From the NCBI RefSeq assembly GCF_029227855.1, contig NZ_CP074356.1: a stretch of 64,000 nucleotides of DNA; one strand, given 5' to 3'. How positions within the stretch are numbered: the stretch's first letter is position 1; each line of letters starts with the position of its first letter. Position numbers: made by a program. Origin of the DNA: Escherichia coli (GTDB lineage Bacteria; Pseudomonadota; Gammaproteobacteria; Enterobacterales; Enterobacteriaceae). This document shows positions 13,201-19,200 of the stretch, piece after piece.

Positions 13201-16200
13201 GAGCAGCGACCTGCGGATCGTGGGTAACGATAATCACCGTATGCCCGCGATCGCGCAGCTGATGCAGGATCGCCATCACCTCTTCGCCAGAATGGCTGTC
13301 CAGTGCGCCGGTTGGTTCATCGGCAAGAATTACCTGACCGCCGTTCATCAATGCCCGCGCGATGCTGACGCGCTGTTGCTGACCCCCCGAAAGCTGTGCC
13401 GGGTAATACTCTGTACGGTCTTCCAGCCCCAGTCGTTGCAGTAACTCCTGGGCGCGAAGCAGCCGCTGTTTCCGCTCAAGACCGGCATAGACGGCGGGTA
13501 CTTCAACGTTCTGCTCGGCGGTTAAATGCGAAAGCAAATGGTAACGCTGGAAAATAAAGCCGAAGTGTTCGCGACGCAGTTGCGCCAGCGCATCGGCGTC
13601 CAGCGTGGCAACATCCTGACCGGCTACGCGATAGGTGCCGCTGGTGGCCTTATCCAGGCAGCCGAGAATATTCATCAGGGTCGATTTACCGGAACCCGAA
13701 GCGCCGACAATCGCCACCATCTCACCAGCATAAATATCGAGGCTGATGCCCTTCAGCACCTCAACCTGCTCATCACCGGCAGGATAGCTGCGACGAATAT
13801 CCTTTAATTCGAGCAAGGGCGTCATTGTGCAGCTCCTGGTTTGGCCTCACCAATCACCACTTCATCGCCCGCTTCCAGCCCTTTGACAATCTCAACATCG
13901 GTATCGTTACGTGCGCCAATCGTCACTTCACGCTCGCGTGTTTCACCATTACGCAACAATTTGACTTTATAACGATTATCGCCAACCGGATCGCCTAACG
14001 CCGACAGAGGGATCGTCAGCACATTTTTCACATCGGTGAGCTGAATATGCACTTGCGCGGTCATATCCAGCCGCAGCAAACCATTGGGGTTGGGTACTTC
14101 AAAACGGGCGTAATAGAAAATAGCGTCGTTAACCTTTTCCGGCGTCGGTAGCACATCCTTGATTTGCCCTTCGTAGCGCGTCAGCGGATCGCCAAGCACC
14201 GTAAACCAGGCTTTTTGCCCCGGCTTCAGGTGGATTACATCCGCTTCAGAAACCTGCGCTTTTACCAGCATGGTGCTCATATCTGCCAGCGTCAGAATGT
14301 TCGGTGCTTGTTGTGCGGCAATCACCGTCTGGCCTTGCAGAGTGGTGATTTGCGTGACTTCCCCGGCCATCGGGGCAACGATGCGGGTGTAATCGAGATT
14401 GGTTTTAGCCGTATCGAGTGAGGCCTGATTGCGCTTGATTTGCGCGTCAATGGTGCCAATTTGCGCCTGTTTCACAGCCATCTCCGTCGCGGCGGTGTCG
14501 AGATCCTGCTGTGAAACCGCCTGCGTTTGTGCAAGACGTTGCTGACGGGAATACGTCACCCGCGCCAGTTTCAGCTCCGCTTCCGCCTGCTGCCGCTGCG
14601 CGCGTAGCTCCATCAGCGTTGCTTCCACCTCCTTGATCTGGTTTTCAGCCTGTTCAGGATCAATAACCCCTAAAAGCTGGTCTTTTTTTACTTTATCGCC
14701 AATCGCCACCGACAGCGTTTTCAACTGACCGCTGACCTGCGCGCCCACATCAACCTTACGCAGCGCGTCCAGCTTTCCGGTCGCCAGCACGCTTTGCTGT
14801 AAATCACCGGGGCGCACAATCAGCGTCTGATAAGTCGGCACGGGTGCGTTAAGAATTCTCCATAACGTAATCAGCCCGGCGATGACTATCACCAGCGCAA
14901 TAACGTAACGCTTCTTCACGGTTTTCCGCTTTTTCATAAATATTCTGAATACTCCATATGCCAATCCGGGTCATTAACTTCAACGAAATATCAACAAAAC
15001 CCTAAAATTTACGTTAATAATCACACTATTGATGTTTGGTTAAGATACGCAATGGTGAAATCGACGTCATGTATAACCATTGATTTCATGAATATGTCGC
15101 AGCTAACTGAACGGACCTTTACGCCATCTGAATCTCTCAGCAGCCTGTCACTTTTTCTTAGTCTGGCACGTGGACAGTGTCGGCCGGGTAAATTCTGGCA
15201 TCGCCGTAGTTTTCGCCAGAAATTTTTGCTGCGCTCGTTGATTATGCCGCGTTTAAGCGTTGAGTGGATGAACGAACTTTCCCACTGGCCCAATCTCAAT
15301 GTGTTGTTAACGCGCCAGCCGCGACTGCCTGTGCGTCTGCATCGCCCTTACCTTGCGGCGAATCTTAGCCGTAAGCAATTGCTGGAGGCGTTACGTTACC
15401 ATTATGCGTTACTCCGCGGGTGTATGTCGGCGGAAGAATTCAGCTTATATTTGAATACCCCTGGGCTGCAACTGGCGAAGCTGGAAGGCAAAAACGGCGA
15501 GCAGTTCACACTTGAGCTGACCATGATGATCTCAATGGATAAAGAAGGTGACAGCACAATCCTGTTCCGCAACAGCGAAGGTATTCCTCTGGCAGAGATC
15601 ACGTTTACCCTGTGTGAATATCAGGGGAAAAGAACAATGTTTATTGGCGGACTGCAAGGCGCAAAATGGGAAATTCCACATCAGGAAATCCAGAATGCGA
15701 CGAAAGCCTGCCACGGGCTATTTCCCAAACGCCTTGTGATGGAAGCGGCCTGTCTGTTTGCCCAACGTTTGCAGGTAGAGCAGATCATTGCCGTCAGCAA
15801 TGAAACACATATTTACCGCAGCCTGCGTTATCGCGATAAAGAAGGCAAGATCCATGCCGATTACAACGCTTTCTGGGAATCGGTTGGCGGCGTATGTGAT
15901 GCTGAACGCCATTACCGCCTTCCGGCACAGATAGCACGAAAAGAGATTGCCGAAATCGCCAGTAAAAAACGGGCTGAATACCGTCGGCGCTATGAGATGC
16001 TCGACGCTATTCAGCCACAAATGGCCACGATGTTTCGCGGTTAATCCGCGCGACCGCGCGCCAGCCACAGCACGCGTGAGAACATTTTTTTCAGCAGCGT
16101 CGGTACGGAATCCACACCACGACGTCCTGCCTCCATTGCCACTTCAATGGCGAGATCGGGTTTGGAAGAGCGATGGATCGCTTTCGAGATAATTTTGCGC

Positions 16201-19200
16201 AGATTCATCGGTACATTTTCCGGGATTTGCGCCACGCGGTGGAACACATCGGAAAATCCCTGGCGATACATAAAATGTTCCATATCCAGCGCCGGTAACG
16301 CCGTTAAATGTTCTCGTTCGGCTTCCCGATCGTTATTCAACAGGCTGCGTACCGTAGCGGCATATTTCTTCCCTGCTTCATCGCCATCGACCAGTACATG
16401 CCATTCAATCCCCATTCGGCGGGCAAATTTAACCAGTGGCTTTAGCCCGGACTGGGCAAACTCAATGACCTTGATCCCTTCAGCATCAAAATGATGTCCG
16501 CACTGACGCGCCAGTTCATTGATAACCCAGGTTTCCGTTTCCCCTTCCACCAGCAGCCAGCAGCGTGCAAACAGCGATGACGGACGATTAAAACGAATGT
16601 GGAAAGAGATGCGTCGGCTATCTTCGGTACTCAAGCCACTCGGCCCCAGACGCCAGGCGGCAACGCGCGAGGACTCACGTACCAGTCGGCAAATATGCTC
16701 TACCGGCGTTAACGAAAGCAACTCACCCGAGTTGGTGGTGGCAATGCGCTGCAATGGCAGAAGATTCAACAGATGCCAGGCAACTGAAAGCATAATGGGG
16801 TGTAAACGGGTTTCTGGATCTTCGATCAGCAACAATGGACGGGCGTCTTTATCCAGTCGCAATGTGCCTTTTGCCTGCAATAAAGTAGCAAACAGGCCGA
16901 GCAAAATAACCCGATACGAGCGCCCTCCTGGTCGGTCAATCATCCGGTTGATGATATCCAGATAGCGCCAGCTTCGTTGCTCATTGCTGGCTCGCCGCCG
17001 CATTAAACGATATCGCGCCTGTCCGGCCCCCTGCTCAGAGAAATAATGCTCAAGCAGCTGTACCATTGCGGAAAGTCCCTGACGAATCTGCCCATCAGAG
17101 AGATTTTGCGGATGTGAGGATAGCTCACGGGCGAGGAAATCGAGCTGGCGCGCGGTGACTTCCACATTAGGGACATTTGGCACCGTGCCGTTACGAATAC
17201 GGCGCATAAAACGGGCATCACGCAAGCGCAGCACCGGCATTAAACGCACCAGATGGCGTGCCTGGTCGTTAATATCCTCGACATCAATCGGATGTCCGTC
17301 TTTATCGAGAAAACTGCGGAGTGTCATCACGCTGCCGTCTTCCGCACTCTCCCCTTCCAGACGATAAAAAATACGGTGATAGCCATCGGTGCATGGCGTC
17401 CAGCACGCTTCCAGCGGCCGATAGCGGCGAACCCGATGTCGGCCTGGCAGCGATTCGCGGAAGGTCAAAATAATATGCAGATGATGTTCTCGCCCGTTGA
17501 TATCTCCCGGCGGGAACCAGAAATCGTCGCGCTCAAAATGGTAGAGATCTGATTCTGGCGATAGCAGCAGAGTTAAGGCGTCCAGCAAGCTGGATTTACC
17601 CCACGCGTTCTCCCCAATCAGGACGTTGTTTTGTTCCAGCATCAACGACAAACGGTTGATACCGCGAAAACCCACAATTTCAACGCGCTCAAGAATCATA
17701 TCCCCTCCAGAAATATGTGACTTATCCTTTACGCTGGCAGTATAACGGGAAAGGCCATGCTAATACGTGATGACATCACATTTAAGCATGGCAAATGTCT
17801 GAAAAATGAGCGAATAATCGCGTTATACTCCCTCTTGCTGATAAGCCTGCAAAAACAACAAAATCAAATAATTAGCATGATAAATTATTTTTTATTACGC
17901 CTAAAGGATTAAATCTTTTGCTTGCACTACACTGTCAATCAGACAAATGACTATATGGGGCAACCCGCTGTTGCCCTAAATCAAATTTACTGGATTTATT
18001 TATCTGGTGAATGACTCGCCTTCGTTTTTAAAATAGCCGCGCATTATTTCCGTCGTCACTTTTTTACGACGACCCTATAAAACGACCATATTTTTCACAG
18101 GGTCAATTTTTAATTGAGGTGGATATGTTCAGAAAATTAGCAGCTGAATGTTTTGGTACTTTCTGGCTTGTTTTTGGTGGCTGTGGTAGTGCTGTACTGG
18201 CCGCAGGCTTCCCGGAATTAGGCATTGGTTTTGCCGGCGTGGCGCTGGCATTCGGTCTGACCGTTCTGACGATGGCCTTTGCTGTTGGTCATATTTCTGG
18301 TGGTCATTTTAACCCGGCGGTCACTATTGGTTTATGGGCTGGCGGACGTTTCCCGGCAAAAGAAGTCGTTGGCTACGTAATTGCCCAGGTTGTCGGCGGT
18401 ATTGTTGCGGCGGCGCTGCTGTATTTAATTGCCAGTGGTAAAACGGGTTTTGACGCGGCAGCCAGCGGTTTTGCTTCTAACGGTTATGGCGAGCATTCGC
18501 CAGGCGGTTATTCCATGCTTTCCGCGCTGGTAGTTGAACTGGTATTGAGTGCAGGTTTCCTGCTGGTGATCCACGGCGCAACCGACAAATTCGCTCCTGC
18601 TGGTTTTGCGCCGATCGCTATTGGTCTGGCCTTAACCCTGATTCACTTAATCAGTATTCCGGTGACTAACACTTCTGTTAACCCGGCGCGCAGCACCGCG
18701 GTTGCTATCTTCCAGGGCGGCTGGGCATTAGAACAACTGTGGTTCTTCTGGGTGGTGCCAATTGTCGGCGGTATTATCGGTGGTCTGATTTACCGGACTC
18801 TACTGGAAAAGCGTAATTAATTAACGCAGAAGGCCTGGCGCAATGTCAGGCCTTTTTTAAATATATTGATTCATCTTCCTGTTGCGCTCCTTGATGTGTT
18901 AAGCCACATATAGTCACTGGCGCAGGGAGCGCGCAGGGGGCGGCCAATCGCCGCCGCCCCCTGCACCCCCGGGCTCTGGCGAACAAAATCGCCGCTGCGC
19001 GGTGCCCTCGACTTATCCCTTGCGGCTACCGGGTCGGGCGCGAGGTAACATATATGGACGCTCCCGGAATGCAATGCTTTCTTCAGTTATGTAATAAAAC
19101 GGGTAGGTGCAGCCATATATCCGGTTTCTGATGGGATTTTTATCCCGAACCATGATGAAATCCGCCAGGCAGGTACCAATCATCCTCTACGGGCTAACTT

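What the first reader, a model, noticed from the sequence alone, without database searches (positions are those of the whole stretch)
16041..17699. OLD-family nuclease YbjD in a core position, convergent with and overlapping ybjX
YbjD combines an ABC-type ATPase with a Toprim-like nuclease region (OLD family). OLD-family proteins underlie several anti-phage systems (P2 Old, Gabija GajA), yet ybjD is a conserved single gene whose function is unassigned to my knowledge. Its stop codon overlaps the ybjX stop on the opposite strand (TTAA at 16041..16044), so the two convergent transcripts must overlap, allowing antisense interference.
Basis: partly seen in the sequence, partly recalled or inferred. 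Interest (0 to 1): 0.3.

Follow-up and report, generated by a model that had tools for sequence, protein, structure and literature searches.

The report
Known E. coli OLD nuclease gene ybjD
This is the ordinary, universally conserved E. coli gene ybjD, a stand-alone OLD-family ATPase-nuclease whose end overlaps the neighbouring gene ybjX by four bases. Its OLD identity, a first phage-challenge test and the overlapping transcripts have all been published, so the finding is correct but not new.

Summary
ybjD (16041..17699, minus strand, 552 aa) and ybjX (plus strand, ending at 16044) converge, and TTAA at 16041..16044 holds both stop codons.

YbjD has an ABC-type ATPase (Pfam DUF2813) followed by an OLD-type Toprim region. 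The full two-metal nuclease site is invariant across relatives down to about 30% identity. The locus is present in 5424 of 5426 complete E. coli genomes and is syntenic across 80 Enterobacterales species. dN/dS is 0.015 to 0.04.

- Schiltz 2019 used YbjD as the seed for OLD classification.
- A 2026 microPublication found no phage phenotype in the knockout against 68 phages. Overexpression gave a weak anti-phage effect that needed neither the Toprim domain nor Walker A Lys35.
- ExcludonFinder (2025) lists ybjD-ybjX as a convergent excludon.
- Adams 2021 maps a Rho-dependent stop of the antisense RNA about 880 nt inside ybjD.

What I add:
- The 4-nt overlap is kept in 47 of 57 ybjX-bearing species, and a passive explanation is enough.
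- A strong hairpin plus U6, specific to Escherichia and lying inside the ybjX codons, is a predicted ybjD terminator.
- The conservation pattern points to a housekeeping-like role that needs the nuclease, rather than broad immunity.

Novelty: already known. Interest: low.

The parts
15027..15043 (+). PhoP box of the ybjX promoter (TATTGA-N5-GGTTAA)
   Evidence: Exact single match in the window. The same box was mutated and shown to be needed for PhoPQ-dependent ybjX expression in Shigella (PMC12562796).
15056..15061 (+). ybjX -10 hexamer TGAAAT; transcription start near 15070
   Evidence: Sequence read. The hexamer and start site were defined by primer extension and mutagenesis in PMC12562796.
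15088..16044 (+). ybjX coding region (VirK/YbjX family, DUF535), including the stop codon
   Evidence: ORF. Pfam DUF535 3.2e-102. RefSeq start.
16041..16044 (.). TTAA: the overlapping stop codons of ybjD (minus strand) and ybjX (plus strand)
   Evidence: The same geometry (YTAR) is kept in 47 of 57 ybjX-bearing Enterobacterales loci.
16041..17699 (-). ybjD (oldB) coding region, 552 aa, including the stop codon
   Evidence: PMC13261556.
16575..17699 (-). ABC-type ATPase region with helical insert (residues 1-375, Pfam DUF2813). Walker A G29-S36 lies at 17592..17615; Walker B-like IEDPE is residues 292-296.
   Evidence: Pfam. Invariant G29, E30, G34 and near-invariant K35, E293, E296, H300. Model secondary structure.
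16044..16574 (-). Toprim plus C-terminal helical nuclease region (residues 376-552). Catalytic set: E385, E389, D438, D440, D472, E474, K513.
   Evidence: OLD-like_TOPRIM at residues 376-440. All seven residues are invariant in 40 relatives of 28-53% identity. Their spacing matches the B. pseudomallei OLD residues E400/E404, D455/D457, T506/E508 and K562 described in PMC6755086.
15964..16016 (-). Predicted intrinsic terminator of ybjD: a long hairpin followed by U6, embedded antisense in the last ~25 codons of ybjX
   Evidence: Fold of 61 nt: -26.7 kcal/mol, z = -4.8, 0 of 200 shuffles as stable. Exact coordinates. Identical in K-12 and kept with G-U-compatible changes in E. albertii. Not conserved as a structure in other genera. 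No 3'-end mapping support found.
16045..16926 (+). 3' extension of the ybjX transcript running antisense through the 3' half of ybjD, ending in a Rho-dependent termination region
   Evidence: PMC7815308 supplementary file 2: position 917246 (minus strand), 'antisense ybjD'. Reads upstream/downstream were 299/18 without bicyclomycin and 568/545 with it. Rho score 15.9, p 6.9e-53. Converted with MG1655 coordinates. No intrinsic terminator or plus-strand promoter-like site in this stretch.
17739..17744 (-). Conserved -10-like TATACT about 40 nt upstream of the ybjD start codon
   Evidence: Sequence. The motif (C/T)TATACT is aligned across Enterobacteriaceae upstream regions. Inference only; no start-site data were consulted.

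Best explanation
ybjD encodes a stand-alone OLD-family enzyme of the DUF2813 clade. It has an ABC-type ATPase head with a helical insert, which in solved OLD proteins mediates dimerisation. This is joined to a Toprim-plus-helical nuclease region that carries a complete two-metal active site and a catalytic lysine.

The most likely working is that of other OLD proteins. The protein is an oligomeric, ATP-gated nuclease in which nucleotide binding by the ATPase restrains or licenses cleavage of a nucleic acid by the Toprim site.

Unlike the mobile OLD systems, this gene is vertically inherited, syntenic and under very strong purifying selection. I therefore infer that its selected role is a conditional, housekeeping-like nucleic-acid surveillance or repair task that needs the nuclease. 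The published anti-phage effect would then be a latent or side activity seen only on overexpression.

At the RNA level the two genes form an ordinary convergent overlap:
- PhoP-activated ybjX transcription has no intrinsic terminator. It reads about 0.9 kb antisense into ybjD until Rho stops it.
- ybjD transcripts probably end at a hairpin plus U6 inside the ybjX codons.
- The two RNAs can therefore pair over up to about 1 kb.

Shown: architecture, conservation, stop overlap, transcript overlap, Rho dependence. Inferred: oligomeric ATP gating, the housekeeping role, use of the predicted terminator, any regulatory effect.
For: **Architecture**
- Pfam DUF2813 plus OLD-like_TOPRIM.
- PADLOC GajA and Old models hit.
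- AlphaFold model with pLDDT 85 and pTM 0.83. Its best solved matches are GajA (E about 1e-18), Thermus OLD 6p74 (2.7e-17) and retron Eco8 OLD.

**Catalytic set**
- Invariant in 40 relatives.

**Core and vertical inheritance**
- 5424 of 5426 E. coli genomes.
- 80 Enterobacterales species at 66-99% identity, flanked by aqpZ and macA.
- dN/dS of 0.015 to 0.04. That is below macA in every comparison, and below aqpZ against E. albertii, Citrobacter and Enterobacter.
- Eight distant relatives examined are all single genes among housekeeping genes, with no helicase partner.

**Experiment (PMC13261556)**
- ybjD is expressed.
- The knockout has no phenotype on 68 phages.
- Overexpression lowers plating of Bas18 and Bas20.
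- The Toprim domain and K35 are not needed for that effect.
- K35A is more toxic.
- Toxicity does not depend on recBC.

**Transcripts**
- PMC12288877.
- PMC7815308.
- PhoP control of ybjX in PMC12562796.
- Terminator fold.
Against: - No biochemical activity of YbjD has been shown.
- Deleting the nuclease domain did not change the only phenotype known.
- Nearly all characterised OLD proteins are immune effectors, so a defence role with an untested trigger remains plausible.
- The knockout is viable and has no reported growth defect, which does not point to any particular housekeeping task.
- The predicted ybjD terminator has no 3'-end mapping support in the data sets I could search and is not conserved outside Escherichia.
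- The antisense reads could come from an unrecognised internal promoter rather than ybjX read-through.
Confidence: 0.55

Rival explanations
1. YbjD (OldB) is first and foremost a Class 1 OLD anti-phage defence protein, like P2 Old or Vibrio cholerae OLD. It would be kept in the core genome and fire only against particular phages or triggers not yet tested.
For: - Overexpression at a non-toxic inducer level reduces plating of Bas18 and Bas20 and shrinks plaques of Bas64-68 (PMC13261556).
- Family precedent: P2 Old, GajA, retron Eco8 and Vc OLD are all immune proteins.
- PADLOC GajA and Old models hit strongly.
Against: - The knockout has no phenotype on 68 phages.
- The overexpression effect needs neither the Toprim domain nor Walker A Lys35, yet those residues are invariant in the family.
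- dN/dS of 0.015 to 0.04 and stable synteny from Escherichia to Serratia are unlike arms-race genes.
- The gene does not lie in a defence island, here or in eight distant relatives.
- DefenseFinder counts Class 1 OLD in only 0.45% of genomes, so it evidently does not count this ubiquitous gene (PMC12392090).
Confidence: 0.3
2. The convergent overlap is a selected regulatory device (an excludon). PhoPQ-induced ybjX transcription would silence ybjD through polymerase collision and RNase III cleavage of the RNA duplex.
For: - The pair is listed as an excludon.
- The antisense RNA covers about 880 nt of ybjD.
- ybjX is directly PhoP-activated.
- The overlap geometry is kept in 47 of 57 species.
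- An Escherichia-specific terminator hairpin lies inside ybjX.
Against: - No reciprocal expression data exist for this pair.
- 165 such convergent pairs exist in E. coli, so overlap alone is unremarkable.
- Rho removes about 94% of the antisense signal by mid-gene.
- ybjX is absent in 23 of 80 species, where ybjD is just as conserved.
- Conservation of the overlap has a passive explanation (see full report).
- There is no conserved RNA structure or covariation.
Confidence: 0.15
3. YbjD is an orphaned Gabija GajA (Class 2 OLD) that has lost its GajB helicase partner.
For: - The best PADLOC hit is a GajA model (PDLC00094, 268 bits) against 84 bits for the Old model.
- GajA structures are the top fold matches.
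Against: - There is no UvrD-like helicase next to ybjD in the window, in 80 Enterobacterales loci or in eight distant DUF2813 relatives.
- Sequence similarity to solved GajA is marginal (E 7e-5, N-terminal P-loop only) and similar to that for Thermus Class 1 OLD.
- The fold-search E-values for GajA and Thermus OLD differ by only about tenfold.
- Giant relatives are insert-bearing versions of the same protein, not helicase fusions.
Confidence: 0.07

Closest known systems
Class 1 (stand-alone) OLD family nucleases: P2 Old, Thermus scotoductus OLD (PDB 6p74), Vibrio cholerae OLD
   Same: - Single polypeptide with an N-terminal ABC ATPase and a C-terminal Toprim/helical nuclease.
- Isolated gene without a partner.
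- Conserved Walker A and B, Toprim Glu, DxD, second metal site and Lys.
- Already assigned to Class 1 by Schiltz 2019 and named OldB in 2026.
   Different: - Only about 18% identical to P2 Old and marginal by sequence to 6p74 (E 0.0017).
- Chromosomal, core and vertically inherited rather than carried on a phage or island.
- Toxicity is independent of recBC, unlike P2 Old.
- ATP-binding Lys is dispensable for the phenotype, unlike Vc OLD.
Gabija GajA (Class 2 OLD)
   Same: - Best PADLOC and fold matches.
- Same catalytic residue layout.
- The idea that ATP binding restrains activity fits the more toxic K35A mutant.
   Different: - No GajB helicase neighbour anywhere in the clade sampled.
- Not in a defence island.
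Cran1, an archaeal OLD-family ATPase acting in cell-cycle progression
   Same: Precedent for an OLD-family protein with a cellular, non-immune role. It is cited by the ybjD authors themselves.
   Different: Cran1 is essential and belongs to a separate archaeal class. ybjD is dispensable in E. coli. I did not compare the sequences.
Convergent excludons of E. coli (ExcludonFinder map)
   Same: - ybjD-ybjX is one of the 165 listed pairs.
- A terminator embedded in the neighbour's transcription unit is the common pattern, predicted for 146 of 165 pairs.
   Different: - The intergenic distance here is -4 nt, against a mean of 95 nt.
- One arm (ybjX) ends by Rho, far inside the partner gene.
- Mutually exclusive expression has not been shown for this pair.

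Membership tests
OLD family (ATPase-Toprim nucleases) | [quoted passage not shown] | tested here: met
   - DUF2813, AAA_15 and AAA_21 hits.
- GENAWGKS at residues 29-36 and IEDPE at 292-296.
- G29, E30 and G34 invariant; K35, E293, E296 and H300 conserved in 90% or more of sequences.
OLD family (ATPase-Toprim nucleases) | C-terminal Toprim domain with the invariant Glu and DxD, plus second metal site and Lys from the helical domain | tested here: met
   - PF20469 at residues 376-440, E 3.8e-16.
- E385, E389, D438, D440, D472, E474 and K513 invariant.
- Fold matches to GajA, Thermus OLD and Eco8 OLD.
OLD family (ATPase-Toprim nucleases) | Metal-dependent nuclease activity and ATP hydrolysis | not testable with these tools
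   No biochemistry on YbjD was found. PMC13261556 reports genetics only.
Class 1 OLD | Isolated gene with no conserved partner gene | tested here: met
   - Neighbours are aqpZ (divergent) and ybjX (convergent).
- ybjX is absent in 23 of 80 species while ybjD persists.
- Distant relatives are single genes too.
Class 2 OLD / Gabija | Adjacent UvrD/PcrA/Rep-like helicase GajB, usually in tandem or overlapping | tested here: not met
   No helicase within 6 kb in the window, in 80 Enterobacterales loci or in eight distant loci.
Class 3 OLD / retron Eco8-type | Adjacent reverse transcriptase and msr-msd non-coding RNA | tested here: not met
   - No reverse transcriptase among the annotated neighbours.
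- No Rfam retron RNA in the window.
- The NCBIfam Eco8 effector model scores 20 bits against a cut-off of 250.
Anti-phage defence system (functional sense) | Protects against phage at native expression | not testable with these tools
   Published: the knockout equals wild type on 68 BASEL phages, and an effect appears only on pBAD overexpression (PMC13261556).
Excludon | Neighbouring opposite-strand genes whose transcripts overlap | tested here: met
   - CDS overlap read from the sequence.
- Published RNA-seq map.
- Rho-dependent antisense 3' end inside ybjD.
Excludon | Mutually exclusive expression or RNase III processing of the pair | not tested
   No pair-specific data were found in the papers or supplements available.

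The most novel reading that the evidence does not exclude
YbjD would be a domesticated OLD nuclease whose selected job is not immunity but a conditional nucleic-acid maintenance task using its invariant Toprim site. Its level would be tuned by envelope stress: PhoPQ-driven ybjX read-through, limited by Rho, would lower ybjD expression. This would link Mg2+ and antimicrobial-peptide sensing to a potentially toxic nuclease.
Probability: 0.1. Interest if true: 0.5.

Novelty: already known. Interest (0 to 1): 0.2.

Why it matters
As a scan hit it matters little. The gene's family, class, first phenotypes and transcript overlap are all published.

One question remains open. A protein family otherwise known from mobile immune systems is here kept in every E. 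coli and across Enterobacterales under very strong purifying selection. Its nuclease site is intact, yet the only phenotype known does not use that site. Resolving this would show whether OLD nucleases also have housekeeping roles in bacteria, as Cran1 suggests for archaea. It would also remove one of the fully uncharacterised y-genes of E. coli.

Tried and rejected
- **Orphaned GajA.** The best PADLOC hit suggested it. I rejected it as the main reading because no helicase neighbour appears in any of 88 contexts, and because sequence and fold distances to GajA and to Thermus Class 1 OLD are similar.
- **Giant relatives as OLD-helicase fusions.** Rejected. They are the same two domains with large inserts.
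- **A conserved RNA structure downstream of the ybjD stop.** RNAalifold on 43 species gave -2.5 kcal/mol and no compensatory pairs. The hairpin is specific to Escherichia. The conserved T-run is the antisense of two Lys codons in the YbjX motif SKKRAEYRRRY.
- **An intrinsic terminator for ybjX inside ybjD.** None found. The first 104 nt have z = -0.1.
- **Term-seq or Rend-seq support for a ybjD 3' end near MG1655 position 918207.** Nothing was found in the PMC7815308 or PMC12207403 supplements. No supplements were held for PMC9023263, PMC11092163 or PMC12288877.
- **The Salmonella 'old gene critical under temperature stress' claim (Khatiwara 2012).** The paper is not held, so I could not confirm that it concerns the ybjD orthologue.
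- **A regulator site upstream of ybjD.** Only a conserved -10-like TATACT and an Escherichia-only palindrome were seen, with no recognisable LexA or other box.
- **'DUF2813' in the literature.** No papers.

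
Full report
**Observation**

The window carries two convergent ORFs. One runs on the plus strand and ends at 16044. The other runs on the minus strand over 16041..17699 and encodes 552 aa. The bases at 16041..16044 are TTAA. TAA at 16042..16044 ends the plus-strand gene. The reverse complement of 16041..16043 (TAA) ends the minus-strand gene, so the coding regions overlap by four bases.

A 100% identical E. coli chromosome (NZ_AP045174.1) annotates these genes as ybjX (VirK/YbjX family) and ybjD (ATP-dependent endonuclease). They are flanked by macAB on one side and aqpZ on the other. 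K-12 MG1655 has the same arrangement: ybjD 916473..918131 and ybjX 918128..919120.

The only correction concerns the ybjX start. The mechanical ORF begins at 15052 and RefSeq begins at 15088. Primer extension in Shigella places the transcription start 18 bp downstream of the upstream ATG, so that ATG cannot be used (PMC12562796).

**What YbjD is**

- Pfam assigns residues 1-375 to DUF2813 (E 1.5e-160), with overlapping P-loop/ABC-type hits (AAA_15, AAA_21, SMC_N). Residues 376-440 match OLD-like_TOPRIM (E 3.8e-16).
- PADLOC GajA and Old models hit. NCBIfam has no equivalog.
- An AlphaFold model built on 40 relatives is confident (pLDDT 85.4, pTM 0.83). Only the helical insert at 164-176 and 221-243 is poorly defined.
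- Its best solved matches are Gabija GajA (E about 1e-18), Thermus scotoductus Class 1 OLD 6p74 (2.7e-17) and retron Eco8 OLD, followed by PtuA and SMC heads.
- By sequence alone the solved relatives are marginal. YbjD therefore belongs to its own clade.

In an alignment of 40 relatives at 28-53% identity the following are invariant or nearly so:
- Walker A: G29, E30, G34, K35.
- The IEDPE..LHP Walker B region: E293, E296, H300, P301.
- The Toprim Glu pair: E385, E389.
- The DxD motif: D438, D440.
- A second acidic pair: D472, E474.
- K513.

The spacing of these residues reproduces the two-metal site and catalytic lysine defined for B. pseudomallei OLD: E400/E404, D455/D457, T506/E508 and K562 (PMC6755086).

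**How conserved it is**

- The ybjX-ybjD stretch is present once, at 95% or more identity, in 5424 of 5426 complete E. coli genomes.
- A scan of one genome per species returned 80 Enterobacterales loci with 66-99% protein identity, from Escherichia to Serratia, Pectobacterium and Brenneria. aqpZ lies upstream and macA downstream in most Enterobacteriaceae.
- YbjD is 91% identical between E. coli and Citrobacter, whereas YbjX is about 57%.
- dN/dS for ybjD is 0.015 against E. albertii and 0.03-0.04 against Citrobacter and Enterobacter. It is below macA in every comparison, and below aqpZ in these three.
- ybjX has dN of 0.34-0.51 against most Citrobacter and Enterobacter.
- The wider family has 335 clusters at E of 1e-30 or better.
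- Eight distant members examined are all single genes among housekeeping genes. Neighbours include a 5'-nucleotidase, hslUV-argS, ftsZ-lpxC and polA-cysS-ribosomal proteins. None has a UvrD-like helicase or an evident defence partner.
- Relatives of 815-1867 aa are the same two domains with large inserts in the ATPase, not fusions.

**What is already published**

- Schiltz et al. 2019 used YbjD (b0876) as the seed for collecting OLD homologues. They placed E. coli and Salmonella among Class 1 single-gene members.
  - ybjD is expressed.
  - The Keio deletion does not change plating of 68 BASEL phages.
  - pBAD expression at a non-toxic inducer level lowers plating of Bas18 and Bas20 and shrinks plaques of Bas64-68.
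  - Deleting the Toprim domain (construct 1-377) or mutating its acidic residues changes nothing. Deleting the ATPase abolishes the effect.
  - K35A keeps the effect and is more toxic.
  - Unlike P2 Old, YbjD does not kill a recBC(ts) strain.
  - The authors propose the name oldB.
- ExcludonFinder (PMC12288877) lists ybjD-ybjX among 165 convergent pairs with overlapping transcripts in at least 50% of strand-specific RNA-seq samples.
- Adams et al. 2021 (PMC7815308, supplementary file 2) report a Rho termination region at 917246 (minus strand), classed 'antisense ybjD'. There were 299 reads upstream and 18 downstream without bicyclomycin, and 568 and 545 with it. The Rho score is 15.9 and p is 6.9e-53.

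With the MG1655 coordinates, the Rho site lies 882 nt beyond the ybjX stop, which is window position about 16926. The upstream 800-nt counting window lies wholly inside ybjD. A substantial antisense RNA therefore covers the 3' half of ybjD and is cut off by Rho.

**Transcript anatomy in the window**

- *ybjX promoter.* It is present unchanged: PhoP box TATTGA-N5-GGTTAA at 15027..15043 and -10 TGAAAT at 15056..15061. Both were validated in Shigella, where ybjX is induced by low Mg2+ through PhoPQ.
- *Downstream of the ybjX stop.* There is no intrinsic terminator. This fits the Rho-dependent end.
- *Downstream of the ybjD stop.* The minus strand folds into a long hairpin (16016..15971) followed by U6 (15969..15964). 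The energy is -26.7 kcal/mol, z is -4.8, and none of 200 shuffles is as stable.
  - The hairpin is identical in K-12 and is kept in E. albertii with changes compatible with pairing.
  - It lies inside the last ~25 ybjX codons. If used, ybjD mRNA carries a 3' UTR of about 75 nt antisense to ybjX.
  - I found no 3'-end mapping evidence for it.
  - Other genera lack a conserved structure: RNAalifold gave -2.5 kcal/mol and no compensatory pairs.
  - The widely conserved T-run is the antisense of two Lys codons of the YbjX motif SKKRAEYRRRY.
  - It is therefore an Escherichia-specific prediction, of the kind ExcludonFinder reports for 146 of 165 pairs.

**Conservation of the overlap**

Among 57 loci that have ybjX, 43 show the exact 4-nt overlap by the best-hit analysis.

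Four Kluyvera-type loci first appeared to have a 1.1-kb gap. They carry two tandem ybjX paralogues. In L042 the paralogue next to ybjD ends at 7656 and overlaps the ybjD stop. The proximal hits in the other three end at matching positions, which would bring the count to 47 of 57.

The tetranucleotide varies (TTAA, TTAG, CTAA, CTAG). The remaining loci have gaps of 4-38 nt or a disrupted region.

A passive explanation is enough, and this part is my inference. YbjD ends in a conserved Asp followed by TAA or TAG. The complement of GAY-TA in the ybjX frame is always TAA or TAG. Any ybjX that keeps its frame must therefore stop there. The in-frame length changes seen in the YbjX tail do not disturb this.

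ybjX is absent in 23 of 80 loci without any loss of ybjD conservation. ybjD therefore does not depend on the arrangement.

**Interpretation**

The identity and architecture are secure. Three observations sit uneasily with a purely immune role:
- The gene is core, syntenic and slowly evolving.
- The native-level deletion has no phage phenotype.
- The only phenotype is independent of the nuclease domain and of Walker A Lys35, while exactly those residues are invariant across the family.

I therefore favour a selected function that uses the nuclease in some cellular or conditional context, with anti-phage activity as a latent property. I give this moderate confidence. The authors of the 2026 paper raise the same possibility and cite the archaeal OLD protein Cran1.

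A defence role with an untested trigger remains a serious rival. The excludon reading is possible but unproven. An orphan-GajA origin is unlikely.

**Verdict**

The finding is accurate, but every element is already published. My additions are incremental: the overlap conservation and its passive explanation, the predicted embedded terminator, the dN/dS contrast with ybjX, and the contexts of distant relatives.

Novelty: already known. Interest: low.

Noticed in passing
window 19325..20350 (-): An IS110-family 'RNA-guided transposase' gene (341 aa) sits between aqpZ and lysO. K-12 MG1655 has only about 0.5 kb of intergenic DNA at that spot, so this is a strain-specific insertion.
   Followed up: partly
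window 7682..7709 (-), beside the tRNA at 7492..7576 (+): A single Rfam CRISPR-DR4 repeat match (50 bits) next to a tRNA gene. It looks like a lone repeat or a remnant of an array.
   Followed up: no
window 8439..8562 (-) and 49758..49836 (+): Known small RNAs STnc490 (144.6 bits) and RybB (104.1 bits). Both are ordinary for E. coli.
   Followed up: no
L039, L042, L043, L048 (Kluyvera and relatives), e.g. L042 7656..8612 and 8797..9750: Two tandem ybjX paralogues. The one next to ybjD is about 50% identical to E. coli YbjX; in L042 it ends at 7656 and keeps the 4-nt stop overlap. The distal one is about 66% identical. This suggests two YbjX lineages and could explain the 47-76% spread of YbjX identity among genera.
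   Followed up: partly
L019, L022, L026-L029, L035, L036, L047 (Klebsiella, Raoultella, Superficieibacter and others): ybjX is absent. ybjD is followed about 110-200 nt later by co-directional macA, with no obvious terminator in my scan. ybjD may therefore read into macAB there.
   Followed up: no
proteins P0149, P0162, P0163, P0165, P0166, P0175, P0196; locus L088 5001..9449: Giant relatives of YbjD (815-1867 aa) with the same DUF2813 and OLD-Toprim domains. They carry large inserts inside the ATPase and long C-terminal extensions, reminiscent of SMC-like arms.
   Followed up: partly
window 17767..17779 (-): A perfect palindrome GTGATG-T-CATCAC about 20 nt upstream of the conserved -10-like TATACT of ybjD. 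It is imperfect in other Escherichia sequences and absent in other genera. No regulator was identified.
   Followed up: partly
literature: PMC6737244, UTI89_C0880: ybjD is listed as up-regulated (1.31) in uropathogenic E. coli treated with a cathelicidin peptide, alongside arn genes. ybjX is PhoP-induced and reads antisense into ybjD, so an unstranded library could have assigned ybjX read-through to ybjD. I could not establish the library type.
   Followed up: partly
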